Shown piece by piece: positions 1 through 14,613 of a stretch of DNA of 22,636 nucleotides. Within the stretch, counting starts at the first letter, position 1; the number at the start of each line of letters is the position of its first letter. The notes beneath the pieces were generated by a model, which worked only from the letters and a program-made list of their open reading frames with translations, was not told the DNA's origin and searched no databases. Origin of the DNA: a virus (Duplodnaviria; Heunggongvirae; Uroviricota; Caudoviricetes); the IMG/VR virus record IMGVR_UViG_2740892230_000001, positions 1 to 22,636 of that record; one strand, given 5' to 3'. Position numbers and translations under genes: made by a program.

Positions 1-34
1 GGTTCTTCTGACGGGCGGCGGCACAGGGATGTGC
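1..34. repeat. Left copy of a perfect 34-bp inverted repeat (partner at 1164-1197); the window starts inside it, so it may extend leftward
   Basis: 1-34 ggttcttctgacgggcggcggcacagggatgtgc is the exact reverse complement of 1164-1197. Read on the plus strand it ends a frame with GGG TTC TTC TGA, the same final codons and stop as the antirepressor gene. Confidence 0.8.
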
Positions 35-48
35 AAAACGAAACTATC

Positions 49-60
49 GTGACATGTCAC
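49..60. repeat. 12-bp perfect palindrome GTGACATGTCAC; the 14-mer tcgtgacatgtcac recurs at 21917-21930
   Basis: Direct reading; self-complementary; second identical copy about 21.9 kb away. Confidence 0.7.
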
Positions 61-78
61 AGGCCGCTTTCGCGGCCT
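61..78 (-). terminator. GC-rich stem-loop after the small secreted peptide gene (weak U-tract)
   Basis: AGGCCGC / GCGGCCT 7-bp stem with a 4-nt loop directly after the stop at 86-88; downstream T-run is poor, so terminator function is uncertain. Confidence 0.3.
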
Positions 79-85
79 TGTTCTT

Positions 86-247
86 TTAACGAATGCCACC
101 GCCGCCCGGGCGGGAATCCGCAGAACGCCCACCGCAGCGGGAGCCGTCAGCGGCAGTATCGCTGTCGTGCTGACAACGACCGGCAAAGGCCTGAGTTGAA
201 GCTACCAGAGACAACAAAACGAACAGTGCAGCAAATGCTTTTTTCAT
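86..247 (-). CDS. Small secreted peptide, 53 aa: predicted signal peptide MKKAFAALFVLLSLVASTQAFA, then a 31-aa Gly/Cys-rich mature part
   Basis: Internal Met of track ORF 86..352. Classic n/h/c signal peptide with AFA-G cleavage motif. The longer ORF start would read through the terminator hairpin at 320-339, so the MKK start is preferred. Confidence 0.35.
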   Translation of the reverse strand: MKKAFAALFVLLSLVASTQAFAGRCQHDSDTAADGSRCGGRSADSRPGGGGIR

Positions 248-260
248 TGTGAAATTTCCA

Positions 261-288
261 TCTATAAGCCACCTCAATGTGGCGTCAA
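261..288 (-). promoter_or_regulatory. Putative sigma70 promoter for the peptide gene (TTGACG-16-TATAGA) with an inverted repeat in the spacer
   Basis: Minus-strand TTGACG at 288-283 and TATAGA at 266-261; GCCAC..GTGGC inverted repeat at 268-283; very short leader. Confidence 0.3.
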
Positions 289-319
289 TGAGTGTAGCAC
301 TGACTTTTGTTTCGTCCAC

Positions 320-339
320 AAAAAAGCCCGCGCTGCGGG
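320..339 (-). terminator. Rho-independent terminator of the two-gene operon
   Basis: Minus strand reads GCCCGC-AGC-GCGGGC followed by TTTTT, immediately after the TAG stop at 340-342. Confidence 0.55.
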
Positions 340-885
340 CTATTCCTTCCATTTATCAGAAAAAAGATCTTCTTCTAAAGGCATTGGTTCTGTTTTTGTT
401 TTCTCAAAGAATTGATAACTGATAGTGATTGCTTCCTCTTTAAACTCTTCTTGCTCAGTTATGTTGTGAGCATCTGCGTCAACAAAAAACATAACCAGCG
501 CATCACGATTGTGATTTACCGAATAAACTAAAAAGCAATCACTTGTTGGTATGCATTTTACTTGTACAGACGCTATATTTTTCCATGCATCCCAAGATGA
601 TTTTTTACCAGTGTGTTTTTTATCACTATCTTCTGGAATATAGTCTTGGTTATCGACATGAGTATGCCTGACATTTAGTTTAAGCATTTCTGTCGGACGA
701 GCAAATGCAGCATCTTTACCAAGAGATGGATGGTATCCCGTTTTCCAATACTGGGTAAAGGCATCAGATACTTTCTTCAGCTCAAGATCAGATGCACAAA
801 GGGCCGAGAAATTTTGCGTATGCAACACTCGACCCTTATATCTGACAACTTGATTTTTATCATTCTGCGACGCAGACGAACTCAT
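340..885 (-). CDS. YafO-like toxin-family protein, 181 aa (candidate type II toxin / mRNA interferase)
   Basis: Track ORF 340..912 trimmed to the ATG at 885, which has an AAGGA SD. Segments KLNVRHTHVDN and FLVYSVNH..ALVMFFVDADAH resemble the recalled E. coli YafO pattern (V.H.HL.N ... HLVY ... LLIAIL..H). AT-rich gene with its own terminator. Confidence 0.45.
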   Translation of the reverse strand: MSSSASQNDKNQVVRYKGRVLHTQNFSALCASDLELKKVSDAFTQYWKTGYHPSLGKDAAFARPTEMLKLNVRHTHVDNQDYIPEDSDKKHTGKKSSWDAWKNIASVQVKCIPTSDCFLVYSVNHNRDALVMFFVDADAHNITEQEEFKEEAITISYQFFEKTKTEPMPLEEDLFSDKWKE

Positions 886-1039
886 AATTTTCCTTATTGT
901 TACGAGAATCAAAGAAAGCGCGGGATACGCGACTTGCGTGATCTTTTGTCATAGTAACTTTTACGTACTCTACGCTTCCATTGAAAGAACGTCTTGCGGC
1001 AGCTTGCGCTCTACGCATCTGCAATTTTTCGTTTCGCAT
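860..1039 (-). CDS. 59-aa ORF overlapping the toxin-like gene start by 26 nt; candidate antitoxin or regulator (absent from the ORF track, below the length cutoff)
   Basis: Hand translation: MRNEKLQMRRAQAAARRSFNGSVEYVKVTMTKDHASRVSRAFFDSRNNKENYEFVCVAE, stop TGA at 860-862. GAGG SD 7 nt upstream of the ATG at 1039. Small upstream overlapping gene is the usual antitoxin position. Confidence 0.35.
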   Translation of the reverse strand: MRNEKLQMRRAQAAARRSFNGSVEYVKVTMTKDHASRVSRAFFDSRNNKENYEFVCVAE

Positions 1040-1113
1040 GACATTACCTCATATCTCATAAGTTCATTACACGGATTAATAAAAATGAAACCAATCCGTT
1101 TACCCTTGAGGTA

Positions 1114-1142
1114 ATAGTACGCTATTCACCCACAGTCTGCAA
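1114..1142 (-). promoter_or_regulatory. Putative sigma70 promoter of the toxin-antitoxin-like operon (TTGCAG-17-TACTAT)
   Basis: Minus-strand -35 at 1142-1137 and -10 at 1119-1114. A 9-bp inverted repeat TGAGGTAAT (1107-1115) / ATTACCTCA (1043-1051) overlaps the -10 and the SD. Confidence 0.3.
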
Positions 1143-1163
1143 TCTGTACAGAATTATTTAAAG

Positions 1164-1197
1164 GCACATCCCTGTGCCGCCGCCCGTCAGAAGAACC
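1164..1197. repeat. Right copy of the 34-bp inverted repeat; overlaps the last three codons and stop of the antirepressor gene and contains the hairpin GGCACA-GGGA-TGTGCC
   Basis: Exact reverse complement of 1-34. The hairpin is followed on the minus strand by TTTAAATAATT, a possible terminator for the antirepressor gene. Confidence 0.8.
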
Positions 1198-2131
1198 CTG
1201 CTTTGTCGTTGATGTACTCCGCGTGCGTCTGGATATCACGCAGGCATTTGCTCACACCAACGATGTAACAGAACATGGTGGTCAGCTCCGCCGCCGCGCC
1301 CGATACATCGTGCCCGTCTTCCTGTAACTGGTTCAGCAGATTCATCAGCAGTGAGTTCTCCGTCAGACCGAGAACACCAGACGGAGAATGAATCAGACTG
1401 CGGTAGCCGGGCTTCAATGGATAACCATAACATTTTGTCTGTGTTTTAATTGCCTCACGAAGCGCATCTAACATCTTGACTGCCACTTCATCATTCTCTG
1501 ATGCAGATCCAGCAGGGAGATACTCCCCTTCAAGCGGAACCCGAGCAACAAGAGACAACGCTTCGGCAAATTGATCTTCACCAATTTCTTTGTACGAACA
1601 GCCAAAATGAGATTTCAGTGACGACCACATGGTGATCATCGCCTTAGCCTGTTTTTCTTTTGGCAGAGACTGACCGCGACTCATGACGAGTTGTTTAATG
1701 GCTTCCTGCTGTTCAGTTGTTATTTTACCCGGCAACGCCTTTTTAGCTTTGCGTGGGTTAACCACATGGCCTTTAGTCCAGTACTCGTAGAGCACATCGT
1801 CACACTCTTCCTGATACTGGATTACCTTGTCGCGGATTTCAGGGCGGACTTTGTTAGGGCTGATGGTTTGCAGCCAACCTGCAAGTTTGCGTAAAGCAAG
1901 ACAGATAACCAGACGACGCTGAGTATCACCGGGGAGCTGAATGGTCATTTCGACCATGCAGCTCTTAAAGCGTTGTTGCAACTTGCGGAACTGCGTTTTC
2001 CAGTCCAGCCCCATACCTTCAACGACTGGTTTCATTGGGGTGTATGGTTCGCCGTTATGATTGACAACATAAAGCTCTGCGCCGTGGAATGGCACGTTGA
2101 TAGTAGATACCGCTGTTGCTATACTCGTCAT
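1187..2131 (-). CDS. Phage antirepressor (Ant-like), 314 aa
   Basis: N-terminus NVPFHGAELYVVNHNGEPYTPMKPVVEGMGLDWKTQFRKL fits the phage antirepressor N-terminal family as I recall it. Lies directly downstream of an Arc-like gene as in P22 immI. AGGAA SD 7 nt upstream. Confidence 0.6.
   Translation of the reverse strand: MTSIATAVSTINVPFHGAELYVVNHNGEPYTPMKPVVEGMGLDWKTQFRKLQQRFKSCMVEMTIQLPGDTQRRLVICLALRKLAGWLQTISPNKVRPEIRDKVIQYQEECDDVLYEYWTKGHVVNPRKAKKALPGKITTEQQEAIKQLVMSRGQSLPKEKQAKAMITMWSSLKSHFGCSYKEIGEDQFAEALSLVARVPLEGEYLPAGSASENDEVAVKMLDALREAIKTQTKCYGYPLKPGYRSLIHSPSGVLGLTENSLLMNLLNQLQEDGHDVSGAAAELTTMFCYIVGVSKCLRDIQTHAEYINDKAGFF
2097..2125 (+). promoter_or_regulatory. Strong sigma70-like promoter on the antisense strand inside the 5' end of the antirepressor gene (TTGATA-17-TATACT)
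   Basis: TTGATA at 2097-2102, 17-nt spacer, TATACT at 2120-2125; predicted start near 2132, at the antirepressor start codon. Confidence 0.4.
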
Positions 2132-2206
2132 GTCGTTAATTCCTATACGTAGTTTTACGATACTGAAGCCCTGACGGTCTGGCCACCGTGGGGCTTCGCT
2201 GTTTTA
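2132..2206 (+). ncRNA. Predicted sar-like antisense RNA (about 70 nt) complementary to the antirepressor ribosome-binding site
   Basis: Promoter at 2097-2125, then stem GAAGCCC (2165-2171) / GGGCTTC (2191-2197) followed by GCTGTTTTA. Spans the antirepressor SD (complement of 2140-2144) and start codon. Same arrangement as the known P22 sar RNA. Confidence 0.35.
2181..2194. promoter_or_regulatory. Operator-like motif GGCCACCGTGGGGC between the Arc-like and antirepressor genes (second copy at 2386-2400)
   Basis: CCACCGTGGGGC is repeated exactly at 2183-2194 and 2389-2400; CACCGTG / CACGGTG also at 2413-2419 and 2439-2445. Confidence 0.4.
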
Positions 2207-2371
2207 TGCCACGCTATTCTTCTCACCAGTGAGTCCATACACTTTCCTCAGCTGATAGATAATCTCTGTATTGAACTTTCGGCATTCTTTTTCGCCATTT
2301 CTTTCAATAGCTAACTTCACATCGTCCGGAAAACGAACTCGTCGTTGACACATCTCTTTTGCTTTTTGCAT
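2204..2371 (-). CDS. Arc-like ribbon-helix-helix repressor, 55 aa
   Basis: Track ORF 2204..2392 trimmed to the ATG at 2371 with an AGGAGA SD. RVRFPDDVKLAIERNGEKECRKFNTEIIYQLRKVY follows the Arc pattern (FNLRWP..EVLDLV...NGRSVNSEIYQRV) recalled from P22. Confidence 0.55.
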   Translation of the reverse strand: MQKAKEMCQRRVRFPDDVKLAIERNGEKECRKFNTEIIYQLRKVYGLTGEKNSVA

Positions 2372-2385
2372 TTCATATCTCCTTA

Positions 2386-2400
2386 GCCCCACCGTGGGGC
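2386..2400. promoter_or_regulatory. Operator-like palindrome GCCCCACCGTGGGGC at the predicted start of the arc/ant transcript
   Basis: Sits between the -10 of the minus-strand promoter (2407-2412) and the Arc-like start codon (2371). Confidence 0.4.
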
Positions 2401-2406
2401 AAAATA

Positions 2407-2435
2407 ATTGTCACACCGTGCGTCATTGATGTCAA
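2407..2435 (-). promoter_or_regulatory. Putative arc/ant promoter (TTGACA-17-GACAAT) in the divergent intergenic region
   Basis: Minus-strand perfect -35 TTGACA at 2435-2430 and GACAAT at 2412-2407. A weaker divergent promoter for the Mnt-like gene may overlap it (TTGATG 2427-2432). Confidence 0.4.
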
Positions 2436-2491
2436 GCACACGGTGAGGCATACTTCAATCATTGCAAGTAACTCAATATTTGGTGAAGAAC

Positions 2492-2923
2492 ATGAGCAGA
2501 GAAGATCCACAACTAAGGATCAGACTTCCCGTTGAAGTAAAAGAAAAAATAGAAATTTCTGCAAAAGCCAATAAGCGATCAATGAACGCTGAAATAGTAC
2601 AACGTCTTGACACCAGCTTTCTGAAAGATATTCATGAAGATGACGTAATTTCTGCTTATGAAGCAAAAATTATTGCAAACAATGCACGACATGAAATATC
2701 AAATATTATTTTCAAAAGAACCTTTAATGAAATTAATAAGAAAATAACACTTGGACATACAAGTTTTTATATAAACCTTAATGACCTTGAACTGGAATCA
2801 CTTGCAGATAATGATTACCAGATCATCTTTGAAAAAACATTTAATAAGCTCAATGAACTAGGTTACATCATCTGTGAAAACTCATGGGATGCAGATGGTT
2901 TTGGAATTGAAATACCTGAATAG
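2492..2923 (+). CDS. Mnt-like repressor, 143 aa: N-terminal Arc/Mnt ribbon-helix-helix domain plus an unassigned C-terminal domain of about 95 aa
   Basis: MSREDPQLRIRLPVEVKEKIEISAKANKRSMNAEIVQRL closely parallels recalled P22 Mnt (MARDDPHFNFRMPMEVREKLKFRAEANGRSMNSELLQIV). ATG at 2492 has a GGTGA SD; the track start at 2462 is a TTG. Divergent from arc/ant as in immI. Confidence 0.6.
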   Translation: MSREDPQLRIRLPVEVKEKIEISAKANKRSMNAEIVQRLDTSFLKDIHEDDVISAYEAKIIANNARHEISNIIFKRTFNEINKKITLGHTSFYINLNDLELESLADNDYQIIFEKTFNKLNELGYIICENSWDADGFGIEIPE

Positions 2924-3013
2924 GAAGAACAAAAGGCGTGTACATATTACACGTCTTTAATACAATTGAAAAACGCCACATTACTGATGTATGTTACAAC
3001 AAGGAGCGATATT

Positions 3014-3577
3014 TTGAAAACCATATCTATATTAAAGGTTGCATTAGGCGTCGCTATTATTTTGACTCTCTCAATATTGTTTTATTTTTACCACAAAAAA
3101 ACTGCTATTGCTCTTGATGGTCACGCGGCAAACTCATTTTTCTCAGAGTACATAGTGCCGCTATCAGGAAGCGGTATAACAAATAAATATACTGACTATG
3201 ACATCAAATATGGAATTGATGATGGGGAGACTATTGTATTACATGTAATCATTAAAAACCTAATGACAGTAAATAAAAATACAGACTTCAACGATAAAAA
3301 TACAATACATCACAACAACAGCAAAACATTAATTTCTTATAGTAGCAACATCTATACGGATAAATACCTAAAATACATATCAGAAGATACAATAAAAGAA
3401 ACCCGCGAAAAGTTAAAAAACATATATTGTGCATCCGGCAGTTTTCACAAATTATCGCCGCAAGAGCGTTTATTCTACGAAGCAAGAAAACAACGTAAGT
3501 CAATAATATTACATTATTATGCTGATTCAGGGGAGTCACTCATATTTAATATTGGGGTTTCCCCTGAATCATGCTAA
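3014..3577 (+). CDS. Membrane-anchored protein, about 187 aa, N/K/Y-rich, unknown function (candidate superinfection-exclusion or abortive-infection factor)
   Basis: TTG start at 3014 with ideal AAGGAG SD 7 nt upstream (alternative starts ATG 2987, TTG 2966). N-terminal hydrophobic helix KTISILKVALGVAIILTLSILFYFY. Very AT-rich gene. Positional analogue of P22 sieA beside mnt. Confidence 0.5.
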   Translation: MKTISILKVALGVAIILTLSILFYFYHKKTAIALDGHAANSFFSEYIVPLSGSGITNKYTDYDIKYGIDDGETIVLHVIIKNLMTVNKNTDFNDKNTIHHNNSKTLISYSSNIYTDKYLKYISEDTIKETREKLKNIYCASGSFHKLSPQERLFYEARKQRKSIILHYYADSGESLIFNIGVSPESC

Positions 3578-3588
3578 AGGTGTTTAAC

Positions 3589-6500
3589 TCACCGCATCAC
3601 CGGATCCACCTGGTTTATTAGTGGCGCAATCCAGAACAGGTTATTGCCGGGTATCAGGGTTCGGACATTATGCACAATACGATCACCGGCATCACCATTC
3701 AACACTCCTGCGGTCACATCAATGATGCTATCCGCAAGACCAAATGACGGTCCGAATAGAGATCCTACGAATCCACGACTGGCATACCTAGACTGTGTGC
3801 CAGTGCCAAATAAAGCCCCCAGCCCAACAGCACCACCAGTAGCCTTTTCAGCCATGTTGTTATATTCCATCAATGGCCCAAGAATACCGGATCTATCTAT
3901 ACCCTCAAGCACCAGCTTCTCTGGTGACCAGTCAACATTTTTCCCTTTCGATGCTTCTTTTAGCGCATAGACCAGTGAGCCAAGAGCAATCTGAAATGCA
4001 GTGCCATAATAAAATTGCGCAGTTCCTTCCTGTAACCCACCAAGTAGCACACGGTTGTATGAAGCCGTTGTGAATGATTTAAACTGAAATATCGTTCGCC
4101 CCATTGGAGTACTCGCCCATAAAGGTGTGTCACCAATACCGGGGGTGATGATAGTGTTATTAACGTCTTTCAGAACCGCTGACTGGAATACTCCGGCAAC
4201 GTACTGATCGTCCCATTTATCAAAGTTACCAATGTGCCATCCATCAATTACCTCACCATGTTTCTCGAACTCACTGCGAATACGCGCAGCCATATTGTCG
4301 TTGATACCGAGTTTTGCCATGCGACGTGCAGAAAACGCACCAGACAAAATACCGTCTGACGTGAGCATTCCGTTCATGGATTTGTTTATGTCATTAAATC
4401 GATCCATGAGTGTCAGCTTGCCGAAGGCATCAGTAATTCGCTCCATTCCTGCTTCGACTGCTGTTGTCCTGGAAGAACTGTCAACAAGATCACCAATTGC
4501 ACGAGAACGTGAATGTAGTACAGCTTCCAATCCAATCCCCATCTTCAACATCTCTTCTTTGCTGGCCTTAAATGCCGGTGATTGGGATATCTGAGAAGCA
4601 TAGCCTTTCATGGTGTTACGGAAACCATTAACCATAACCCCTCTGGCCAGATCTGGAATAGCTGATACTGTCATTCCACCGAGTTTGGTCGTGAAGTTCA
4701 CATCCCGCAGAAAAGCGCCAGCACGAACAAAAAACGAAGACGGATCATCAGGCATACCATATGTACCAACAAGACGATCGCGTAATGCTGTTATGTCTCT
4801 GAGATCATTTGCTCTTGATTTTGAAAGTCTGGACTGTTCTTTCCGTAATTCCTTTTCGTACTTTCGCATTAATGAATCGAGTTTACCCTGAGGAACAACT
4901 TCACCATTGCTCTCATAACGTGCTTTCAGATTTGCCACACTTTCGTCATATTTCGCCTTTATTTTTTCAGGCACTTCCCGTAACAGACTGTCATATTCGT
5001 CCTCAATTAATTGCAGACGCTCAGTCATAGTTCGTTTGCCAAATGTTCTCGTCAACTCAATTTCTGCTGCCGCTTCACGGATATGACGTTGCAGCACGTA
5101 ATTCACATCACTTTCAAGATAATCCCTGATAAGACTATCAGGCACATTTAATGTTCTTTCTTTCGTACTACCTGCGGCTTTTACAGAAAATACGCTGACA
5201 AAATCCTGTGGAACCTTAGCACCAGTAATTTTATTAATTACGATATCCGCTGCAATTTCAGCATCCTCAGGATCCAGTGTTTTATTTCCTCTCGACCACC
5301 AGTCAACCAAAATACGTCGAAATTTATCGCGTTCACTGATTATTTTTCCAACTTTATATATACGTGGAAAATAGCTTGCCTGGCCTAATGCTTTCAGTTC
5401 TTCATCTGGCGGTAATAAACCAAGCTTTTGCATTTCAACCTTCACCCGATTTAATACAGTTCGCATCGCCTGCGCCGTTTCCTGAACAACAGGATTAGCA
5501 TGCACATCACCGCTTCGCATAGCATTCCCAACCTGCTGACGAAATGAATCAAAACTCATGTCACCACCATCAGCTTTATACTTTGCGTATGCCTGTTTAT
5601 TTCCGACAACAACAGCAGCTTCTTCACGCCGCCATCCACGTGTACGGGTTTCTACAGCTACCGGTGTTTCAATCCCCCTTTCATTTCCTTTAAGGGTGAA
5701 ATTATTTTCGGCTAACTCCAGCGTTGTTTTTCGCACTGTCTTGGACGGAGACTCCATTAACCTTGTCAAAGGAGTAAGATAGCTCCCTGCTTTCCATGCA
5801 GCCTTTCCAACCCACCCACCGGAAACAGGGGTTAAATCATCCAGAGTCGCTGTATCAATTTTCATAGCACCAACACTACCACCATCAGAAAGCGAAGCGG
5901 CAGCCCTGTCAGTCGCTGATGTAATGCTCATATTATCAAGAGCATCAGCAACCTCACGCGTGGCTGCAGCCCGGACGGATGGCGAAAGCGCAACACCAGC
6001 ACTGGCAAACACGCCGCTCATCATCGCACCCGCTGCAACGTGAGCGGCACTTTCACCCCATGAGCGTGTTATTTGCTGATTATTCAGCACAACCTCGCTT
6101 AATGCTGTACCGGCAGCACCAATCGCAATCTGTGAGCCAATACGCGCCAGTGCCCCTCCTTGAGCACCGGGGATAAACATTGACGCAACAGTAACCGGAT
6201 CCATTCCCGCAGCAATACTGGCAAGAGTTCCAACTACGCCAGCATCAGACAATAAACGTCTGTCTTCATTTTCATCATCTATCTGCTGCTTAATCCACGC
6301 CGTTTCCTCTGGCGATCGGGAATCTGCAAATTTCGCCCCCCAGTATTCATAACCGTGCAACTCATTTTTATCAGCATATGGGTTATAACCTTCGACCGGT
6401 TCAAACTGTCTGGCTGGTCGGAAAAAACCAGCCAGAATATTGTTCTGTCGCATTGCAGCCCCCCATACGGAAGGCTCCGGTGGCAATGGCTCAGGATTAG

Positions 6501-6603
6501 CCCCTTCCGGAAGGGCAACATCAAACCCAGTTTGTTCCGGCAAAACATTACCTGACGGGATCAGTCCGTTATTAAGATCTTCAGCTTGTGCATAAACTGG
6601 CAT
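3589..6603 (-). CDS. Large internal virion / ejection protein (T7 gp16-position), 1004 aa
   Basis: Last and largest gene of the gp13-14-15-16-like series. Gly/Ala-rich hydrophobic C-terminal region. Start ATG overlaps the upstream stop (TAATG). Confidence 0.55.
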   Translation of the reverse strand: MPVYAQAEDLNNGLIPSGNVLPEQTGFDVALPEGANPEPLPPEPSVWGAAMRQNNILAGFFRPARQFEPVEGYNPYADKNELHGYEYWGAKFADSRSPEETAWIKQQIDDENEDRRLLSDAGVVGTLASIAAGMDPVTVASMFIPGAQGGALARIGSQIAIGAAGTALSEVVLNNQQITRSWGESAAHVAAGAMMSGVFASAGVALSPSVRAAATREVADALDNMSITSATDRAAASLSDGGSVGAMKIDTATLDDLTPVSGGWVGKAAWKAGSYLTPLTRLMESPSKTVRKTTLELAENNFTLKGNERGIETPVAVETRTRGWRREEAAVVVGNKQAYAKYKADGGDMSFDSFRQQVGNAMRSGDVHANPVVQETAQAMRTVLNRVKVEMQKLGLLPPDEELKALGQASYFPRIYKVGKIISERDKFRRILVDWWSRGNKTLDPEDAEIAADIVINKITGAKVPQDFVSVFSVKAAGSTKERTLNVPDSLIRDYLESDVNYVLQRHIREAAAEIELTRTFGKRTMTERLQLIEDEYDSLLREVPEKIKAKYDESVANLKARYESNGEVVPQGKLDSLMRKYEKELRKEQSRLSKSRANDLRDITALRDRLVGTYGMPDDPSSFFVRAGAFLRDVNFTTKLGGMTVSAIPDLARGVMVNGFRNTMKGYASQISQSPAFKASKEEMLKMGIGLEAVLHSRSRAIGDLVDSSSRTTAVEAGMERITDAFGKLTLMDRFNDINKSMNGMLTSDGILSGAFSARRMAKLGINDNMAARIRSEFEKHGEVIDGWHIGNFDKWDDQYVAGVFQSAVLKDVNNTIITPGIGDTPLWASTPMGRTIFQFKSFTTASYNRVLLGGLQEGTAQFYYGTAFQIALGSLVYALKEASKGKNVDWSPEKLVLEGIDRSGILGPLMEYNNMAEKATGGAVGLGALFGTGTQSRYASRGFVGSLFGPSFGLADSIIDVTAGVLNGDAGDRIVHNVRTLIPGNNLFWIAPLINQVDPVMR

Positions 6604-9320
6604 TATTTAGATCCCCACGAAAAGTAATCTTTAAATTTGTCCATACGTTCGTTATGCAGGCGCTGATACTGCTCATCCAGAGCGCGATGCTTGTCTTTGA
6701 AGTTTCGTATAGCCTGTCCACGCATAATTTCTTCCTGCTCGTACTGCTCCCATTCCTGCTGCATTTTCTTATAAGGTTCCCAATCTTCTAGTGATGGTTC
6801 CCAACGCATAGGACGCCCATGTTTGTTATAAAACGGCTGGACCCGATCGATGCCATTTTCATCCTTAGTTCTTACCATAATGGCGTAATCACCATTACGA
6901 GGTGTTAACACGTCAGGGGTTATGAATAATTCTCCATTAATACGACTCTCAGGGGTTTTTGTCTCAACTACAGGAGCATTACCTGACGTGATCCCAAGCA
7001 ACGTCGGACTGGTTGTTATAATCTCTTTGCGCTCACCGTACATCAGCCGTTCTTTTTCAGCTTTCCACTGCGCCGCCTGCCAGCCTGACGGCCCATATTG
7101 ATAAAGCGCCTCCGGTGCATATTTCATAAACTGCGCTTCTCCGTTAACCTCGCTGATACTCCAGGTGCGGGCTATCTGCTGGTTGGTCATTTGCTTCGCT
7201 ACGTCAGCGTTACCACCAGCAACGCGGTAGTTAATGTCATACAGCGTCTGATAGTCATTACGGAATCTAGCTGCTTCCGGCGTCTGGTCATCCGCAGACG
7301 GATCCCAACGGAACCACTGCGCCATATTGCTGACAGCAGAATTCATCGCCTTGCTGCGATCATTTTTGTACTCTTTTGAACTCTGCGTTGATGCCAATTG
7401 AGCTTTAAGAGCATCGGTCTGGTTGTACGTAAGGTTCTGCGCCTGCTCGATAGCCGCATCAGCAGACATGCCAGAATCAGTTAGTTGCTTAACAGTCAGA
7501 TAAAAACCCTGCATATCCTTCGGCATATTTCCAATAGATGCATTGTCTGTTTCATATAACCGACTAAACAGTTCCGCCGCATTTTTAACCACTTCCTGAT
7601 TGCTGGATCGGGATACTGCTGAAAGCTGCGTGATGACCTGCGAAGGCATTATGCCAGTCTGAGCCACAAGCCGAACAACCCCATCATGAGTGGAGGCATC
7701 ATTAATACGAAAGTTCTGCGCCATTTCTGTGTAATCAGCAGCTTTCTGCATTGACTTGTTGCTTGGGTCTAATTTTTCACCTATTGTCAGCGCCTCATTG
7801 AATCTGCGTGAATCCCGTTGCGCCTGAATTGCTTCATTTGATCTCTGAAGCAATGCAGACAATTTTCCGTAAGCATCGAGTTTTAACGCATAGTGAGGAT
7901 CGTTAACCTCAGGCTTCACTTTCTGCATTTCTTCTTGCTGCTGAGAAGGAGGCAAATACTGAATTGCCTGGAATATTCTCGCGTTATCAATCGCTATATC
8001 CAGTTGATTGATTATTTTATCTGCGTTTTTTCCATACCCCCTGATGATGGTCTCCTGAGCCGGTATATAATCTGGAACCTCACCGTTATATAGCTGTGCC
8101 ATGGTGTTATTAATAGCTGGCTCAAGCTGTTCTAATATTAACTTCCTTTGCTTTTCTATCTGACTATTAGCAAGGTTATCTATTTGATAAATAGTCAGCG
8201 GATCCATTCCAGTTTTATTTTTTCTATATCGGGAAAGCCACCCTTGTGTTTCTGATGGAAGATTTCGGATAAATTCTTCTTCTGATATTTCACCTTTACG
8301 TGGATCACCGACTTTGGCGATCAGTTTATCCACGTTACCCATCCCCCAGTTATATGCTGCTCCGGTCAATATTTCGGAACCGTACTTACCATACAGTTGA
8401 TTTACATAGTCACTGGCGAGCATTTCATGCTGTTGTTCGTCAGTAGGGTTGTATTCAACGCCACGCTTGGCCGCCAGTTCTTTTCCTGTGCCCGGCATTA
8501 ACTGGTATTTCCCCTGCGCTCTCTCTCCAGAAGATGTTATCGGTCCCTCAAGAAGACTACCATCAGGATTAAAATGTCGATCACCTGATTCAACAAGGCG
8601 TATGGCACGCATGTCCATGCCTCCAGAATCATTTTTCTGAAACAGACCATTTAGCCATCCTTCTGGATTGGCAGCGGCATAATTCTTCGCCCGCATTTCT
8701 GTGGCACTGCGATCATCACTTTCTATTTCTTCCAGAATGCGTTCTTGTGACCATCCCCTGGCAGCTCCATATCTGGCAATGGCTACCATTCTGGAATTTC
8801 TGGCTAAAGTGGCAGTTTGCGGGTCATTCCAGGCATCCGCTTCATTTTGTATCCATAATTTTCTCGTTGCCTGATATTGCTCATCTTCATAGGCATTTGT
8901 CTGCCCTATCTCATGTCTGAGAACTCCAGTACTGAACTGAATTTTCTGTGTTCTGGCTTGTTGCAAAAACATATTTCTTGCTGCTTCATCAGTCAATGAA
9001 GCAGCTATTTCTTCCACATCCTGATCAAATCCAGATATGTACTCTTGCCCCTTACCAATCGCATTTTTGCCTTGTTGTGCATAAAAACCGGTTTGAGGGT
9101 TATAAAGACGTTCATTGCTGCGCTGATTAAGCTGAAGGATGGCATCCTGAGACAATGCAACATTCGCTTTCTGCCTGGCTTCACCATATGCCACCGCATA
9201 CTGATCTGCGACATTCGCCAGCACCTGACCTGCTTGAGGAACATCGAAGGTCTGAAAACCACCGGTTTGTACACCACGACTCTCAACCTGACGTCCTGAT
9301 ACTGTTGGTACGACTGGCAT
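6603..9320 (-). CDS. Internal virion protein with lytic transglycosylase domain (gp15-position), about 905 aa
   Basis: SLT-type motifs VESGDRHF ... YQLMPGT ... AAYNWG encoded at about 8300-8635. Start placed at the ATG at 9320 (GGAGG SD, TAATG overlap with the upstream stop) rather than the track start 9395. Confidence 0.7.
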   Translation of the reverse strand: MPVVPTVSGRQVESRGVQTGGFQTFDVPQAGQVLANVADQYAVAYGEARQKANVALSQDAILQLNQRSNERLYNPQTGFYAQQGKNAIGKGQEYISGFDQDVEEIAASLTDEAARNMFLQQARTQKIQFSTGVLRHEIGQTNAYEDEQYQATRKLWIQNEADAWNDPQTATLARNSRMVAIARYGAARGWSQERILEEIESDDRSATEMRAKNYAAANPEGWLNGLFQKNDSGGMDMRAIRLVESGDRHFNPDGSLLEGPITSSGERAQGKYQLMPGTGKELAAKRGVEYNPTDEQQHEMLASDYVNQLYGKYGSEILTGAAYNWGMGNVDKLIAKVGDPRKGEISEEEFIRNLPSETQGWLSRYRKNKTGMDPLTIYQIDNLANSQIEKQRKLILEQLEPAINNTMAQLYNGEVPDYIPAQETIIRGYGKNADKIINQLDIAIDNARIFQAIQYLPPSQQQEEMQKVKPEVNDPHYALKLDAYGKLSALLQRSNEAIQAQRDSRRFNEALTIGEKLDPSNKSMQKAADYTEMAQNFRINDASTHDGVVRLVAQTGIMPSQVITQLSAVSRSSNQEVVKNAAELFSRLYETDNASIGNMPKDMQGFYLTVKQLTDSGMSADAAIEQAQNLTYNQTDALKAQLASTQSSKEYKNDRSKAMNSAVSNMAQWFRWDPSADDQTPEAARFRNDYQTLYDINYRVAGGNADVAKQMTNQQIARTWSISEVNGEAQFMKYAPEALYQYGPSGWQAAQWKAEKERLMYGERKEIITTSPTLLGITSGNAPVVETKTPESRINGELFITPDVLTPRNGDYAIMVRTKDENGIDRVQPFYNKHGRPMRWEPSLEDWEPYKKMQQEWEQYEQEEIMRGQAIRNFKDKHRALDEQYQRLHNERMDKFKDYFSWGSK

Positions 9321-9865
9321 TATAATCCTCCGGGTAATCTGGTTCCTGCTGCTGCCCCGATTGGCGCAGGGGTGCTTTGAGTAAACGGACTCCACGTCCC
9401 ACCAAACATCTGGTACGCACCGTATGCCTTCAGAGGCGCAGTGAGCAATGTTGTTGCTGCTCCCACATTCCCCTGTTTACGGGCTGAACTGGCTTCTGCT
9501 TTATAGTTGGCAGCCTGAACCTGATAACCGTAAGCCTCGCGTTGCGCGTTATTCACCGTCGTCAGAGAATCAAGAGCGCCAAACTGGGCAGCGTCGCCAA
9601 ATATATCCAGCGCATTACCGGTAGATAAATCAGCGCCGGTCGCCCCCATTGTCGCCGCCTGTGTACCAAGCCGCTGTCGGGTCTCTCTGCGCCGTTGCTC
9701 AGCTTCAGCGTTACCCCTGTTTATTGCATCATTTGCCTGAGCAGTGGCTATATCTGCGTTCGCTTCTGCAACCTTCGAGGCATATTTTCCCTGTTGGTAC
9801 TGGGTGTATGCCTGAATGCCACTCATGGCGAGCATTGCGCCACCAGCAATAACCGGATCGCACAT
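9320..9865 (-). CDS. Internal virion protein B-like (T7 gp14-like), 181 aa
   Basis: Begins MC... with an Ala/Gln-rich N-terminus and an APIGAAAG C-terminus, reminiscent of recalled T7 gp14 (MCWAAAIPIAISGAQ...APIVAAKG). Position between gp13-like and the large core proteins. Confidence 0.55.
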   Translation of the reverse strand: MCDPVIAGGAMLAMSGIQAYTQYQQGKYASKVAEANADIATAQANDAINRGNAEAEQRRRETRQRLGTQAATMGATGADLSTGNALDIFGDAAQFGALDSLTTVNNAQREAYGYQVQAANYKAEASSARKQGNVGAATTLLTAPLKAYGAYQMFGGTWSPFTQSTPAPIGAAAGTRLPGGL

Positions 9866-10329
9866 TATTTTCTCTCCATGTGAAATCTGTGGAAATTAAG
9901 ACCAAGAGCACCATAAGGCGCGGCTTCTTCAAGCCTGAATCCAAGCCAGTGCAACCATGCTTTGGCAACATGGTTTCGCTCGTCGACGTAGTTTTCCAGG
10001 CGCGGATAAACTGCCAGCATCTGCTGCAATACAGGTCGGCAGTGGCGAAGAAATGTCTTCTGATATTTTTCAATACGGCTGGTCCCGACAAGCCAGGGCG
10101 TACCATTGCCACCGATCATTGACGCCGGAGATACGCCAAACATGGTTACCAGTTCTCCGTTCGCGAACCCTGACCAGGCCATAGTCGCAGTGCGCAGACC
10201 AACACGCAGCGCATCTTCGGTAGTCATCAGCGATACCGCATACAGTTCGTCAATATCAGCCTGACGAACATCCGGCAAAATCATCTGAAGATGCTCTTCG
10301 GTAGCGGGAATAATTTGAACATCGATCAT
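9865..10329 (-). CDS. Small virion assembly / internal protein (gp13-position), 154 aa
   Basis: Assigned by position and translational coupling only; no recognisable motif. Confidence 0.35.
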   Translation of the reverse strand: MIDVQIIPATEEHLQMILPDVRQADIDELYAVSLMTTEDALRVGLRTATMAWSGFANGELVTMFGVSPASMIGGNGTPWLVGTSRIEKYQKTFLRHCRPVLQQMLAVYPRLENYVDERNHVAKAWLHWLGFRLEEAAPYGALGLNFHRFHMERK

Positions 10330-12800: not shown

Positions 12801-13408
12801 CAGGACAACCTCGCAATGGTAAACTCGTCAACCGGTGGCTGTGGTTCCTGTGATTCATTCTGGCTATGCGAGCCAGCACTAAGAATCACGCGATTGTACA
12901 TATTGAGGGCAAACGTACCGAGGTCTGCATTCCCAGTCAGCGCCATGTTAATAGCTGCCGCAAGACGCCAGGCCAACGCCTCCATAAAAATGGCATCAAA
13001 CATGTTCACATCTGAAACGCGAGATACATACTTGAGCCATGCCTGCGGCTGGTCTGTGTAGATCAACTTTCCTGTTCCGTTGGTGTCTGCACCAACTTCG
13101 TACTGAACGCGCATTGCTGCTGTTGGATTGCGTACACCAGGAAGCATAATTTCAGTAATGCGCAGACAATCGGACGGGTACTGGTACGCATATTCCCAGT
13201 CAGGCGGTGGATTGCTCGTATCTGCAAGCGCCACGCGTTTGGTAGCAAAGTTCCAGTCAAAATCAGAAAGAACAGCATCACGGCAGGCCTCAAAGTGCAG
13301 CGAACATTCCCCCGCTTCCTTGCTGGCTTCCGTCAGGCTGTTAATGCTGCGACTGTTGCCAATATTGGACAGCGCACGATTACAGATCTCTACTACAGAG
13401 GCCATCAC
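12800..13408 (-). CDS. Tail tubular protein A-like (T7 gp11-like adaptor), 202 aa
   Basis: N-terminus ICNRALSNIGNSRSINSLTE parallels recalled T7 gp11 (VNDILASIGEPPVSTLEG); size 202 vs 196 aa; position before the gp12-like gene. Confidence 0.5.
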   Translation of the reverse strand: MMASVVEICNRALSNIGNSRSINSLTEASKEAGECSLHFEACRDAVLSDFDWNFATKRVALADTSNPPPDWEYAYQYPSDCLRITEIMLPGVRNPTAAMRVQYEVGADTNGTGKLIYTDQPQAWLKYVSRVSDVNMFDAIFMEALAWRLAAAINMALTGNADLGTFALNMYNRVILSAGSHSQNESQEPQPPVDEFTIARLS

Positions 13409-13734
13409 TCACCTCCGTTACCGTACAGAGTTTCAGCCGCTGATTTTTCTACACCCCCGGAAACAGGAGCGATCGCCATATCAGTGATCTGCAGATCGGC
13501 GCTGCGATTGACACCATCGTCAGTTTCTCTGGCAGACAGGCCTCGAATAACAGCCTTTGCAGTTATCATCACTTCCGTTCCGACGCCCTTAGGTTGCGCC
13601 TTCAGCTTATTCAATGTGTCGTTATTAAGAGTGATGCACAGCCCCCATGGGTATTCATCGCGAGTTCTGGTTTCTCCGCTCTCATCCTGGTAGCTGTCAG
13701 TGCCGGTTTTGAGGTTTACGAGTTCCATATACAC
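13405..13734 (-). CDS. Hypothetical virion-region protein, 109 aa
   Basis: Track ORF; 4-nt overlap with the downstream gp11-like start; in the late operon. Confidence 0.5.
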   Translation of the reverse strand: MYMELVNLKTGTDSYQDESGETRTRDEYPWGLCITLNNDTLNKLKAQPKGVGTEVMITAKAVIRGLSARETDDGVNRSADLQITDMAIAPVSGGVEKSAAETLYGNGGE

Positions 13735-13778
13735 TCCTGCAATAAAGGGGCCGAAGCCCCTTGTCTGATTCGCGAGGC

Positions 13779-14123
13779 TTACACGCCCAGTTCTTTACGC
13801 TTATCTGCGATCTTCTCGCGGAGCGTTTCAGCTTTGGCGTTATGGTGTGGCTTCTCGTTAAAGAGCAATTCGTACTCTTCACGGAGCTTATCCAGTTCAC
13901 CATCATCTGACACATCGTTGATGATTTTGGTGCTGGTTGCTGCCATTGACACCTTTCCTGCAACTTTTGCTTTTGCCTGTCTGGCTGCATCGTTAACAGG
14001 TTCCAGTGCGCTACCAGGCTCACCTTCGTATTCGATTTCTGCCCCCTCCGGCCACAGAGTGTTATGGATATGAGAGAGGCGCAGAACGCGGTATCTTGGT
14101 TTCTCACCTGACATCGATATCAC
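13779..14123 (-). CDS. Hypothetical virion-region protein, 114 aa (possible capsid decoration or assembly protein)
   Basis: Track ORF between the capsid and tail-tube genes; charged, helix-prone C-terminus. Confidence 0.45.
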   Translation of the reverse strand: MISMSGEKPRYRVLRLSHIHNTLWPEGAEIEYEGEPGSALEPVNDAARQAKAKVAGKVSMAATSTKIINDVSDDGELDKLREEYELLFNEKPHHNAKAETLREKIADKRKELGV

Positions 14124-14124
14124 C

Positions 14125-14562: not shown

Positions 14563-14577
14563 CTTCTTTCTCCATTA

Positions 14578-14597: not shown

Positions 14598-14613
14598 AGG
14601 TTAATAACAGGCG

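What the first reader, a model, noticed from the sequence alone, without database searches (positions are those of the whole stretch)
2492..3577. Mnt-like repressor fused to an unknown C-terminal domain, paired with an AT-rich membrane protein
The first 43 residues match the recalled P22 Mnt DNA-binding domain closely, but the protein is 143 aa and the C-terminal 95 aa do not resemble the Mnt tetramerisation helix, suggesting a sensor or effector-binding domain. It is followed on the same strand by a strongly AT-rich gene for a single-pass membrane protein. The position, between the ejection-protein genes and arc/ant, corresponds to P22 sieA-mnt. A 6-bp perfect hairpin (CGTGTA-CATAT-TACACG, 2936-2952) lies between the two genes. 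This pair is a candidate superinfection-exclusion or defence module with a regulator of new architecture.
Basis: partly seen in the sequence, partly recalled or inferred. Interest (0 to 1): 0.6.

Follow-up and report, generated by a model that had tools for sequence, protein, structure and literature searches.

The report
Long Mnt repressor plus orphan membrane gene
This is the control end of a P22-type antirepressor cassette in an E. coli prophage: its Mnt-like repressor belongs to a widespread but unstudied long form of the family, and the AT-rich membrane gene beside it is an unrelated, lineage-specific passenger of unknown function.

Summary
The sequence features are real. The window is 99.9-100% identical to Escherichia phage TL-2011b. 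Positions 1187-2923 form a complete P22 immI-type cassette: ant, sar antisense RNA (Rfam match above the gathering score), arc-like gene, divergent promoters with three conserved CAC-S-GTG sites, and the 143-aa Mnt-like gene.

The architecture is not unique. At least 262 protein clusters of 142-151 aa from Enterobacterales share it at 58-69% identity, and it is PHROG 1388. In 21 of 21 loci examined, the gene sits divergent from an arc-like gene followed by an antirepressor gene.

After the ribbon-helix-helix domain comes a long helix that aligns collinearly but weakly with the Mnt tetramerisation helix. A further beta-alpha-beta-beta part follows. Together they are predicted to form an acidic alpha/beta domain with no Pfam or PDB relative. 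I read it as an oligomerisation domain, not a sensor.

The membrane gene (TTG 3014-3577, one N-terminal transmembrane helix) is a real gene but nearly an orphan. It occurs only in this prophage lineage (36 of 5,426 E. coli genomes) and in none of 32 related loci. It is not related to SieA. Superinfection exclusion is plausible only from its position. The two-gene module idea is not supported.

The parts
1187..2131 (-). Antirepressor gene ant (314 aa)
   Evidence: Pfam P22_AR_N, E 2.9e-45. Annotated 'anti-repressor Ant' in TL-2011b.
2133..2200 (+). sar-type antisense RNA, complementary to the ant ribosome-binding region. It ends in a GC-rich hairpin followed by GUUUUAU.
   Evidence: Rfam RF00262 sar: 44.8 bits (gathering score 43), E 2.1e-7, full model 1-68. 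The hairpin GAAGCCC...GGGCTTC followed by T-rich sequence is present at the same place in most of the 12 homologous loci printed.
2204..2371 (-). Arc-like small repressor gene (55 aa, ATG 2371, RBS AAGGAG upstream)
   Evidence: Annotated 'Arc-like repressor' in TL-2011b. PHROG 228 Arc-like repressor, E 8.5e-5. 33% identical to the N-terminus of the Mnt-like protein, with the same Q-x-R-x-R strand.
2386..2400 (.). Site O1: perfect palindrome GCCCCAC-C-GTGGGGC, just downstream of the Pant -10. This is the position that Omnt holds in P22.
   Evidence: Conserved in position, and largely in sequence, in 16 loci.
2410..2424 (.). Site O2: GTCACAC-C-GTGCGTC, inside the Pant spacer
   Evidence: identical 15-mer in 14 of 16 loci and near-identical in the other two. 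It lies between the Pant hexamers found.
2435..2449 (.). Site O3: AGCACAC-G-GTGAGGC, a degenerate copy. In most other loci it reads CCCCAC-S-GTGGGGC. It lies inside the inferred Pmnt spacer.
2407..2435 (-). Pant-like promoter: TTGACA (2435-2430), 17-nt spacer, TG-GACAAT (2412-2407)
   Evidence: Consensus scan, 10 of 12 matches with an extended -10 TG. Conserved in the alignment.
2426..2454 (+). Inferred Pmnt: TTGATG, 17-nt spacer, CATACT (CATAAT in most homologous loci). It stands back to back with Pant.
   Evidence: Read by eye. It falls below the threshold of the scan. Inference only.
2492..2923 (+). Long Mnt-type repressor gene (143 aa). Ribbon-helix-helix domain: residues 1-46 (2492-2629). 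Long helix: residues 55-87. Beta-alpha-beta-beta part: residues 91-140.
2932..2958 (+). Stem-loop after the mnt-like stop codon: 11-bp stem with one G-U pair and a 5-nt loop. It has A3-stem-T3 symmetry and looks like a weak two-way terminator.
   Evidence: A-U becomes G-U at the top of the stem in alleles L038/L039, which keeps the stem.
2939..2966 (+). Promoter-like site for the membrane gene: TGTACA, 16-nt spacer, TACAAT. The -10 hexamer is TATAAT in alleles L038/L039.
   Evidence: A consensus match only.
3014..3577 (+). Orphan membrane-protein gene (187 aa, TTG start, RBS AAGGAG at 3000-3005). It has a single hydrophobic segment at residues 4-25 (3023-3088).

Best explanation
The 143-aa protein is the Mnt equivalent, the prophage-expressed maintenance repressor, of a complete P22 immI-type antirepressor cassette (mnt, divergent Pmnt/Pant, arc, sar, ant). 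The cassette sits between the internal-virion/ejection-type protein genes and the tailspike side of a TL-2011b-type (Uetakevirus) prophage.

Its N-terminal ribbon-helix-helix domain is inferred to bind the conserved CAC-S-GTG-core palindromes O1-O3. These overlap Pant and Pmnt, so binding would keep arc-ant silent in the lysogen.

The C-terminal part consists of an Mnt-like long helix plus an extra beta-alpha-beta-beta element. It is predicted to form one acidic alpha/beta domain. It most likely joins the DNA-binding dimers into a higher oligomer, as the Mnt coiled coil does. It is unlikely to act as a ligand sensor.

The gene downstream is a separate moron with its own RBS and probably its own promoter. 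It occupies the variable cargo slot next to mnt. It encodes an N-terminally anchored single-pass protein of unknown function. Envelope-level superinfection exclusion is one reasonable guess among several.

Shown here: homology, cassette composition, conservation of the sites, co-occurrence pattern, and evidence that the membrane ORF is coding. Inferred: DNA binding to O1-O3, oligomerisation by the C-domain, and any function of the membrane protein.
For: Identity of the locus:
- 99.9% identical to TL-2011b over 2100-3700, and 100% over the 95% of the whole window that matches.

Cassette parts:
- ant has P22_AR_N at E 2.9e-45.
- sar matches RF00262 at 44.8 bits, above the gathering score of 43.
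- The arc-like gene is supported.
- The repressor's N-terminal domain matches Arc/Mnt.

Relation to Mnt:
- Collinear alignment with P22-type Mnt over its whole length: 32-40% identity, E 1e-15 to 3e-14. hhalign gives probability 98.5 over query 1-84.

The family:
- 262 clusters at E <= 1e-3, full length, from many enterobacterial genera.
- PHROG 1388 full-length match, E 5e-72.
- An exhaustive search with residues 48-143 alone found 18 clusters. The distant hits inspected are about 140-aa proteins with the same RHH plus C-domain layout; one hit is a false positive.

Context of homologues:
- 21 of 21 loci have a divergent arc-like gene (62-76% identity). The next gene along carries an antirepressor-type domain in every locus checked: Bro-N, P22_AR_N/C, KilA-N or ANT.

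Control region:
- Three CAC-S-GTG sites spaced 24-26 bp apart are conserved in 16 loci. They overlap the Pant hexamers.
- Three of the six CACSGTG matches in the 22.6-kb window lie within 56 bp here.

C-domain:
- AlphaFold2 pLDDT is about 90 over residues 60-140, with helix 55-87, strand 91-95, helix 106-123 and hairpin 126-140.
- Net charge is -10, and the family mean is -7.8.
- The conserved residues are mostly hydrophobic or structural.

Membrane gene:
- Only 4 clusters in 5.8 billion proteins, all at least 95% identical.
- In sequenced phages it occurs only in TL-2011b.
- It is in 36 of 5,426 complete E. coli genomes. The mnt-like allele is also found in 36, adjacent to the membrane gene in the records listed by both searches.
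- It is absent from 32 related loci.
- Alleles keep the ORF, with 10 synonymous and 8 non-synonymous codon changes. One allele has an in-frame 7-codon deletion.

The slot after mnt:
- It holds different cargo elsewhere: tail genes, multi-pass membrane proteins (read by me as gtrABC-like in L014 and acyltransferase-like in L015), other small ORFs, and sieA in P22.
Against: - No binding or oligomerisation experiment exists for any member of this family.
- The Pfam Mnt C-terminal model PF11423, present in canonical Mnt proteins, does not match at E <= 1.
- The helix similarity alone is weak: score about 15.5 against 8.4 +/- 1.9 for column shuffles. Mnt's helix fits both helices of the domain about equally well.
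- The structure was predicted as a monomer, so the oligomer interface is not modelled.
- A ligand- or partner-binding role for the extra domain cannot be excluded.
- The membrane gene is on the same strand only 90 bp downstream, behind a hairpin with a poor U-tract. Read-through from Pmnt, and hence co-expression in the lysogen, is possible.
- Within E. coli the two genes are always found together where both searches list the record.
Confidence: 0.78

Rival explanations
1. One reading: the Mnt-like protein and the membrane protein form one two-gene superinfection-exclusion or defence module. The regulator would use its extra C-terminal domain to sense a signal and control the membrane effector.
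For: - The genes are on the same strand with a 90-bp gap. The hairpin between them has a weak U-tract and may leak.
- Both genes are about 32% GC in a 48% GC phage.
- They are adjacent in the E. coli genomes that carry them; each gene is found in 36 genomes.
- The position equals sieA-mnt of P22.
Against: - The regulator family keeps arc, the antirepressor and the three operator sites in 21 of 21 loci. It never keeps the membrane gene: 0 of 32 loci.
- The E. coli co-occurrence is one prophage lineage at 96-100% identity, so it carries no independent weight.
- The membrane gene has its own strong RBS and a promoter-like site that becomes TATAAT in some alleles.
- It matches no family of known function in PADLOC or PHROGs.
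- There is no sign of a ligand pocket in the conserved residues.
Confidence: 0.08
2. The extra C-terminal domain is a partner- or signal-binding domain, for example for the antirepressor, Arc, or a host or phage factor. That would make this Mnt an inducible rather than constitutive repressor. The membrane gene is still independent.
For: - It is a compact, well-predicted globular domain in place of a simple coiled coil.
- It is always fused to the RHH domain.
- It is acidic, as many protein-binding surfaces are.
- It has weak, non-significant resemblance to winged-helix-type protein-interaction domains.
- In a Pf filamentous phage a homologue sits in the main repressor position next to the excisionase gene.
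Against: - Conserved positions in distant members are mainly core or structural: G88, the D/E-h-x-x-h-E-L stretch, and GY 124-125.
- RHH repressors generally need an oligomerisation element, and this protein has no other candidate for one.
Confidence: 0.15
3. The membrane ORF is not a functional gene. It would be only an AT-rich spacer or a decaying remnant in the ant moron.
For: - It has no homologues outside one prophage lineage.
- The structure prediction has low confidence, pLDDT 50.9.
- Its N/K/I/Y/S-rich composition is typical of AT-rich DNA.
Against: - A 564-bp ORF survives in 30% GC DNA and is intact in the divergent alleles examined.
- Differences fall by codon position as 7/1/10, with 10 synonymous and 8 non-synonymous codons, roughly dN/dS 0.25 by my rough estimate.
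- One allele has an in-frame 21-bp deletion.
- The AAGGAG and TTG start are conserved.
- A clean N-terminal transmembrane helix is the only hydrophobic segment.
Confidence: 0.07

Closest known systems
P22 Mnt repressor and the immI region (mnt, arc, sar, ant); the 'ant moron' of P22-like phages (Villafane et al. 2008, PMC2629481)
   Same: - N-terminal Arc/Mnt ribbon-helix-helix domain. The alignment is collinear to the end of Mnt.
- Divergent arrangement against arc-ant, with sar RNA between arc and ant.
- A palindromic site in the Omnt-equivalent position.
- Located between ejection-type protein genes and the tailspike side, with a membrane-protein gene in the sieA position.
   Different: - The protein is 143 aa, not 83 aa.
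- The Pfam Mnt C-terminal model PF11423 does not match.
- An extra beta-alpha-beta-beta part is predicted to pack with the long helix into a globular domain.
- There are three related sites with a CAC-S-GTG core instead of one Omnt plus one unrelated Oarc.
- The Mnt-like and Arc-like proteins share the same strand residues Q-x-R-x-R. From my own recollection, P22 Mnt and Arc differ there (H-N-R against Q-N-R).
- The host phage is a Uetakevirus, not a P22-like phage.
PHROG 1388 / NCBI 'Arc family DNA-binding protein' of 142-151 aa in Enterobacterales prophages
   Same: Full-length membership: E 5e-72 to the PHROG, and 58-69% identity to Citrobacter, Enterobacter, Yersinia, Proteus, Xenorhabdus and other proteins. 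The arc-antirepressor neighbours and operator sites are the same.
   Different: This allele is the most AT-rich of those examined (31.9% GC). It is the only one followed by the orphan membrane gene. The family has no assigned function and I found no publication on it.
P22 SieA superinfection-exclusion protein
   Same: Same genomic position: on the mnt strand, convergent with the last ejection-type protein gene. It is membrane-associated and probably expressed from the prophage (inference).
   Different: No sequence similarity (BLASTP E 0.15). SieA has several hydrophobic segments, whereas this protein has one N-terminal anchor plus a soluble part of about 160 aa. Its topology class is closer to single-anchor exclusion proteins such as T4 Sp or lactococcal Sie2009. 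That comparison comes from my own knowledge and was not tested here.
Arc/Mnt-domain proteins of Pseudomonas Pf filamentous prophages (PMC7549136)
   Same: PfAC03 ORF7 is 40% identical over residues 1-125, including the C-terminal domain. It is also a prophage regulator-type gene, divergent from the excisionase gene.
   Different: The element is of a different kind (an inovirus). There is no arc-ant partner next to it, and the protein is longer at 164 aa. The cited paper proposes a role only by analogy.

Membership tests
P22 Mnt repressor family (Pfam PF03869 + PF11423) | N-terminal Arc/Mnt ribbon-helix-helix DNA-binding domain | tested here: met
   PF03869, E 1.1e-14, residues 2-46. 1mnt, E 3.5e-7. 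The RHH part of the model matches Arc and AmrZ structures at probability 0.97-0.99.
P22 Mnt repressor family (Pfam PF03869 + PF11423) | C-terminal Mnt tetramerisation helix (Pfam PF11423) | tested here: not met
   PF11423 is absent from the Pfam scan at E <= 1, while all listed canonical Mnt proteins carry it. Only a weak collinear similarity of residues 55-86 remains: score 15.4 against shuffles 8.6 +/- 1.9.
P22 Mnt repressor family (Pfam PF03869 + PF11423) | Gene divergent from arc-(sar)-ant, with overlapping back-to-back promoters | tested here: met
   Conserved in 21 of 21 homologous loci.
P22 Mnt repressor family (Pfam PF03869 + PF11423) | Binds a palindromic operator at Pant as a tetramer and represses ant in the lysogen | not testable with these tools
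   Conserved palindromes sit at the right place. Binding, stoichiometry and repression need experiments.
PHROG 1388 / long 'Arc family DNA-binding protein' (about 143-151 aa) | Full-length match covering both the RHH domain and the C-terminal domain | tested here: met
   PHROG 1388, E 5.1e-72, residues 1-143 of 143. The C-domain alone gives E 5.2e-41. Homologues are 58-69% identical at 99-100% coverage.
P22 SieA superinfection exclusion | Sequence homology to SieA | tested here: not met
   BLASTP E 0.15, limited to the hydrophobic segment. The only PHROG hit is its own unannotated family 8033.
P22 SieA superinfection exclusion | Multi-pass inner-membrane protein | tested here: not met
   One hydrophobic segment (residues 4-25) and none elsewhere. 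SieA shows several hydrophobic segments.
P22 SieA superinfection exclusion | Blocks DNA entry of superinfecting phage | not testable with these tools
   Needs plating and DNA-injection assays.
Thoeris ThsB (TIR-like) defence protein | TIR-like domain | tested here: inconclusive
   One weak PADLOC hit: E 0.0054, 15.2 bits, residues 54-128. No TIR family appears in Pfam at E <= 1. The low-confidence model shows an antiparallel hairpin there. I treat the hit as chance.
Type II toxin-antitoxin pair with an RHH antitoxin | RHH protein encoded next to, and conserved with, its toxin gene | tested here: not met
   The downstream gene differs between the loci examined, and the membrane gene is absent from all 32. 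The conserved partners are arc and an antirepressor.

The most novel reading that the evidence does not exclude
The long-Mnt family defines a distinct kind of immI switch. Mnt and Arc would read the same CAC-S-GTG core at three phased sites. The extra acidic alpha/beta domain of Mnt would be a regulatory interaction domain, binding a partner or signal, so that antirepressor release becomes inducible. In this prophage the switch would also drive a new single-anchor membrane protein that excludes superinfecting podoviruses at the DNA-ejection step.
Probability: 0.12. Interest if true: 0.55.

Novelty: new variant of a known kind. Interest (0 to 1): 0.3.

Why it matters
Antirepressor cassettes decide when prophages are induced and whether one prophage can trigger another. 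P22 immI is the textbook case.

This work shows that a longer Mnt form is common. It comes with a fixed three-site control region, an arc gene and interchangeable antirepressors. It is found in prophages of at least ten enterobacterial genera, including Yersinia pestis, Salmonella and the Enterobacter cloacae complex, and nobody appears to have studied it.

That gives a well-defined target for biochemistry: how an RHH repressor oligomerises without the Mnt coiled coil, and how two repressors share one operator core.

The membrane gene matters less. It is one more orphan moron in a known cargo hot spot, worth a simple exclusion assay and no more.

Tried and rejected
1. Fold assignment of the C-terminal domain.
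- Foldseek against PDB gave nothing below E 0.07, only weak winged-helix-type hits.
- Foldseek against BFVD found only uncharacterised phage proteins of 85-100 aa at E >= 1.6e-3.
- The afdb50 library was not available.
- No assignment could be made.

2. Structure of the membrane protein.
- The AlphaFold2 model had mean pLDDT 50.9 because the alignment holds only near-identical sequences.
- I did not use it for fold search.

3. Homology of the membrane protein to known families.
- Searches of Pfam, NCBIfam, PHROGs, PADLOC, PDB sequences, the phage collection and P22 SieA were empty, apart from a weak ThsB hit that I reject.

4. A fourth CACCGTG site at 2184-2190.
- It lies in the terminator hairpin of sar and is not conserved in other loci, so it is not an operator.

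5. Similarity of O1 to the P22 Omnt sequence.
- I recalled the P22 sequence imperfectly. The P22-type sequence read here (AGGTCCACCGGGACCT) resembles O1 only loosely.
- The argument therefore rests on position and conservation, not on operator sequence identity.

6. Context of very distant family members.
- P0132 and P0135 sit on short contigs in different contexts, which was uninformative.

7. Literature search for this family.
- I found nothing specific.
Full report
**1. What is at the coordinates**

The ORF at 2492-2923 (+) encodes 143 aa. Residues 2-46 match the Pfam Arc domain at E 1.1e-14. The best hit among solved structures is P22 Mnt, 1mnt, residues 3-45, E 3.5e-7.

A second ORF follows on the same strand. 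Its likely start is TTG 3014, behind AAGGAG at 3000-3005, as annotated in the reference phage. A 4-bp indel in two E. coli alleles breaks the frame from the upstream ATG 2987 while keeping the RBS and the TTG.

The hairpin exists but lies at 2937-2953, not 2936-2952. It extends to 11-nt arms at 2932-2958. As + strand RNA it folds at -13.1 kcal/mol, z -5.6, and 0 of 200 shuffles fold as well.

Both genes are AT-rich. The Mnt-like gene is 31.9% GC, the membrane gene is 32.4% and the window is 47.9%.

**2. What the locus is**

The window is 99.9% identical over 2100-3700 to Escherichia phage TL-2011b. Over the whole window, 95% matches at 100% identity. TL-2011b is a Uetakevirus from an O103:H25 outbreak strain.

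The head and terminase half of the window (from about 9270) is 97-98% identical to phiV10-type phages. The left 9 kb is shared only with TL-2011b and HEMP4.

Left of the Mnt-like gene lie four elements:
- A 55-aa Arc-like gene at 2204-2371 (-).
- A match to the Rfam sar antisense RNA at 2133-2200 (+): 44.8 bits against a gathering score of 43, E 2e-7, full-length model.
- An antirepressor gene with a P22_AR_N domain at 1187-2131 (-).

Right of the pair lies a convergent 1004-aa gene, then an SLT-domain protein and a protein with a weak (below cut-off) T7_gp14 match. Relatives of the 1004-aa protein include proteins annotated as internal virion or internal head proteins.

This is the layout of the P22 'ant moron' (PMC2629481). 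In P22-type phage SE10 the order is tailspike, ant, arc, mnt, sieA, gene 16. So all four components of P22 immI are present.

**3. The regulator is a member of a large family**

A search of 5.8 billion proteins found 262 clusters at E <= 1e-3. The listed full-length relatives are 142-151 aa (apart from start-codon variants and fragments) and 58-69% identical over the full length. They come from Citrobacter, Enterobacter, Salmonella, Klebsiella, Yersinia (including Y. pestis, 557 contigs), Proteus, Morganella, Xenorhabdus and others. NCBI names them 'Arc family DNA-binding protein'.

The protein matches PHROG 1388 end to end at E 5e-72. That family has no assigned function.

An exhaustive phmmer search with residues 48-143 alone found only 18 clusters at 50% identity. 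The distant hits I inspected are about 140-aa proteins with an RHH domain in front of the same C-terminal domain. One hit is a repeat-protein false positive. The C-domain therefore appears to travel with the RHH domain rather than as an independent module.

A 40%-identical homologue sits next to the excisionase gene of Pseudomonas filamentous phage PfAC03. PMC7549136 notes such Arc/Mnt-domain proteins there.

**4. Anatomy of the C-terminal part**

AlphaFold2 with 33 homologues gives mean pLDDT 81.7, and about 90 over residues 60-140. The elements are:
- RHH helices 14-26 and 31-41.
- A long helix 55-87.
- Strand 91-95.
- Helix 106-123.
- Hairpin 126-133 / 136-140.

BLASTP against Mnt of ST160, ST64T and P22/SE10 aligns query 1-86 with Mnt 1-83 end to end, at 32-40% identity. 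hhalign of the two family alignments gives probability 98.5 over query 1-84. PHROG 795, the Mnt family, matches residues 1-84. So the long helix stands where the Mnt tetramerisation helix stands.

That similarity is weak when taken alone:
- PF11423 does not match at E <= 1, although canonical Mnt proteins all carry it.
- With the RHH domain removed, Mnt's helix scores about 15.5 against either helix of the domain. Column shuffles give 8.4 +/- 1.9, and 0-1 of 200 shuffles reach the observed score.
- Helical periodicity alone could explain part of this.

The two helices share an internal repeat, IFKRTFNEINK and IFEKTFNKLNE. It scores 20.7 against 8.8 +/- 2.3, and 0 of 200 shuffles reach it. This hints at a duplication of a helix-strand unit.

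No structural relative was found:
- Foldseek against PDB gives E >= 0.07, with weak winged-helix-type hits.
- Foldseek against BFVD returns only uncharacterised small phage proteins.

The domain is acidic: net -10 here, family mean -7.8. Its conserved positions are mainly hydrophobic or structural. I see nothing that suggests a ligand pocket or a second DNA-binding surface.

**5. The control region**

The 120-bp gap between arc and the Mnt-like gene holds three 15-bp sites with a CAC-S-GTG core:
- O1, 2386-2400: the perfect palindrome GCCCCAC-C-GTGGGGC.
- O2, 2410-2424.
- O3, 2435-2449.

Three of the six CACSGTG matches in the 22.6-kb window lie here.

A strong Pant-like promoter reads towards arc: TTGACA, 17-nt spacer, TG-GACAAT. 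O2 sits in its spacer and O1 just downstream of its -10. O1's position corresponds to Omnt in P22.

An inferred Pmnt stands back to back with it and has O3 in its spacer. It reads TTGATG, 17-nt spacer, CATACT, with CATAAT in most relatives.

An alignment of this region from 16 loci of at least ten genera shows that the three sites, their spacing (24-26 and 25 bp) and the promoter hexamers are conserved. The rest of the region drifts.

The Mnt-like and Arc-like proteins carry the same strand residues, Q-x-R-x-R. I infer that both read the same core and differ in flank preference and oligomeric state. This is an inference and was not tested.

**6. Co-occurrence**

I examined 21 loci with a full-length homologue. 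Seven came from exact-protein look-ups and fourteen from the species-representative genome scan.

- All 21 have the arc-like gene divergently upstream, at 62-76% identity (tblastn).
- In every locus checked, the next gene carries an antirepressor-type domain: P22_AR_N, Bro-N with P22_AR_C, KilA-N or ANT.
- These cassettes are inserted in tail-gene clusters of several different prophage types.
- None of 32 loci encodes a relative of the membrane protein.

What follows the Mnt-like gene varies. I saw tail genes, a run of multi-pass membrane proteins in L014 that I read as gtrABC-like, a multi-pass membrane protein in L015 that I read as acyltransferase-like, a pair of small ORFs in L023, and a possible lipoprotein in L017. 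Those readings are mine, from ORF sizes and hydrophobic segments, and were not domain-tested.

In E. coli each of the two genes is found in 36 of 5,426 complete genomes, and they are adjacent in the records listed by both searches. That is one prophage lineage at 96-100% identity, so it carries no independent weight.

**7. The membrane gene**

Relatives:
- It has four relatives in 5.8 billion proteins, all at least 95% identical over the aligned part.
- It forms its own PHROG, 8033, with no function assigned.
- It matches no family in Pfam, NCBIfam or among PDB sequences.
- It is not similar to SieA.

Evidence that it is a real gene:
- The 564-bp ORF is intact in the divergent alleles examined.
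- Changes fall by codon position as 7/1/10, with 10 synonymous and 8 non-synonymous codons.
- One allele has an in-frame 7-codon deletion.

Features:
- It has one hydrophobic segment, residues 4-25, and a soluble part of about 160 aa.
- The promoter-like site TGTACA-16-TACAAT overlaps the hairpin. Its -10 is TATAAT in two alleles.
- The gene therefore looks like a classical moron with its own signals.

Limits:
- The structure prediction failed, with pLDDT 50.9.
- The single weak PADLOC ThsB hit (E 0.0054) has no support elsewhere, and I treat it as chance.

**8. Mechanism, with steps marked**

Shown:
- The cassette composition.
- Homology of the repressor to Mnt.
- Conservation of sites and promoters.
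- Independence of the membrane gene from the repressor family.

Inferred:
- In the lysogen the long Mnt is made from Pmnt and binds O1 and O3, and perhaps O2, as an oligomer held together by residues 55-143.
- Binding blocks Pant, so that arc, ant and hence prophage induction stay off.
- After infection Arc takes over, and sar limits ant translation, as in P22. This rests on established knowledge of P22 immI, as summarised in PMC2629481 and PMC8022706.
- The membrane protein is made in the lysogen from its own promoter or by read-through. It acts at the envelope, and its function is unknown.

**9. Comparison and novelty**

The system works like P22 Mnt and sits in a P22-type immI cassette. It fails one defining feature of the Mnt family as Pfam draws it, the PF11423 C-terminal helix, and adds a domain with no known relative. 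It is a clear member of an existing but unstudied family, PHROG 1388.

I file the regulator as a new variant of a known kind. The membrane protein is an orphan of unknown kind. The proposed two-gene defence module is not supported.

Interest is modest. A specialist would not be surprised by an ant moron with a passenger gene. The wide spread of the long-Mnt cassette and its three-site control region is a tidy, testable lead.

Noticed in passing
window 1-1416 (against L001 3683-5317): A segment of about 1.13 kb (window about 35-1163) is inverted relative to the TL-2011b record. It carries a YafO-like toxin ORF, an 88-aa ORF and a small ORF. It is flanked by inverted repeats of at least 253 bp (window 1164-1416, and 1-34 cut by the window edge). 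These repeats are the shared 3' ends of two convergent antirepressor-type genes: ant and the Bro-N gene gp46. The cause is either inversion by recombination between the repeats or an assembly difference.
   Followed up: partly
window 2133-2200 (+): A P22-type sar antisense RNA lies between arc and ant (Rfam RF00262, above the gathering score). Its terminator hairpin GAAGCCC...GGGCTTC followed by T-rich sequence is present at the same place in most of the 12 homologous loci printed.
   Followed up: partly
window about 2517 (L001 about 6418): The deposited TL-2011b sequence has one extra G in the Mnt-like gene. The record therefore annotates only a 113-aa fragment (gp40) that lacks most of the DNA-binding domain. 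The window and the E. coli genomes checked have the intact 143-aa gene.
   Followed up: yes
window 2204-2371 and 2492-2530: The Arc-like and Mnt-like proteins of this cassette have the same beta-strand residues (Q-x-R-x-R). All three operator-like sites share one CAC-S-GTG core. This suggests that both repressors read the same core, unlike P22 Arc and Mnt as I recall them.
   Followed up: partly
window 2705-2740 and 2822-2860 (residues 72-84 and 111-123): There is an internal repeat in the C-terminal domain: IFKRTFNEINK and IFEKTFNKLNE. The hhalign score is 20.7 against 8.8 +/- 2.3 for shuffles. Each copy lies in a helix that is followed by a strand, which hints at an old duplication.
   Followed up: partly
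window 340-912 (-): The ORF matches the YafO toxin family (Pfam E 9e-6, just above the cut-off). It sits inside the invertible segment next to the ant moron. No antitoxin was identified here.
   Followed up: no
L014 4165-6901; L015 4011-5108; L023 3980-4584; L017 3956-4384: The slot just after the long-Mnt gene holds different cargo in different genera. L014 has three consecutive membrane-protein ORFs that I read as gtrABC-like. L015 has a multi-pass membrane ORF that I read as acyltransferase-like. L023 has two small adjacent ORFs, possibly a toxin-antitoxin pair. L017 has a possible lipoprotein. These readings are from ORF size and hydrophobicity only. The slot looks like a cargo hot spot.
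   Followed up: partly
L011 2929-3423 (Pseudomonas phage PfAC03 ORF7): A 164-aa homologue (40% identity over residues 1-125, including the C-domain) lies divergent from the excisionase gene of a filamentous Pf phage, in the place where the main repressor usually sits.
   Followed up: partly
window 1-9270 against 9270-22636: The window is a mosaic. The head and terminase half is 97-98% identical to phiV10, PAS61 and O157 typing phages. The half with the internal-virion-type protein genes and the ant moron is shared only with TL-2011b and HEMP4. Its 1004-aa protein is closest to proteins of a Klebsiella prophage and of marine Vibrio podoviruses, at 32-37% identity.
   Followed up: no
L029 (Pluralibacter MAG) about 3212-3629: This locus has the same arc-like gene (71% identity) and operator motifs. 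The Mnt-like match covers only residues 1-43, so short and long Mnt forms may alternate on the same cassette.
   Followed up: no
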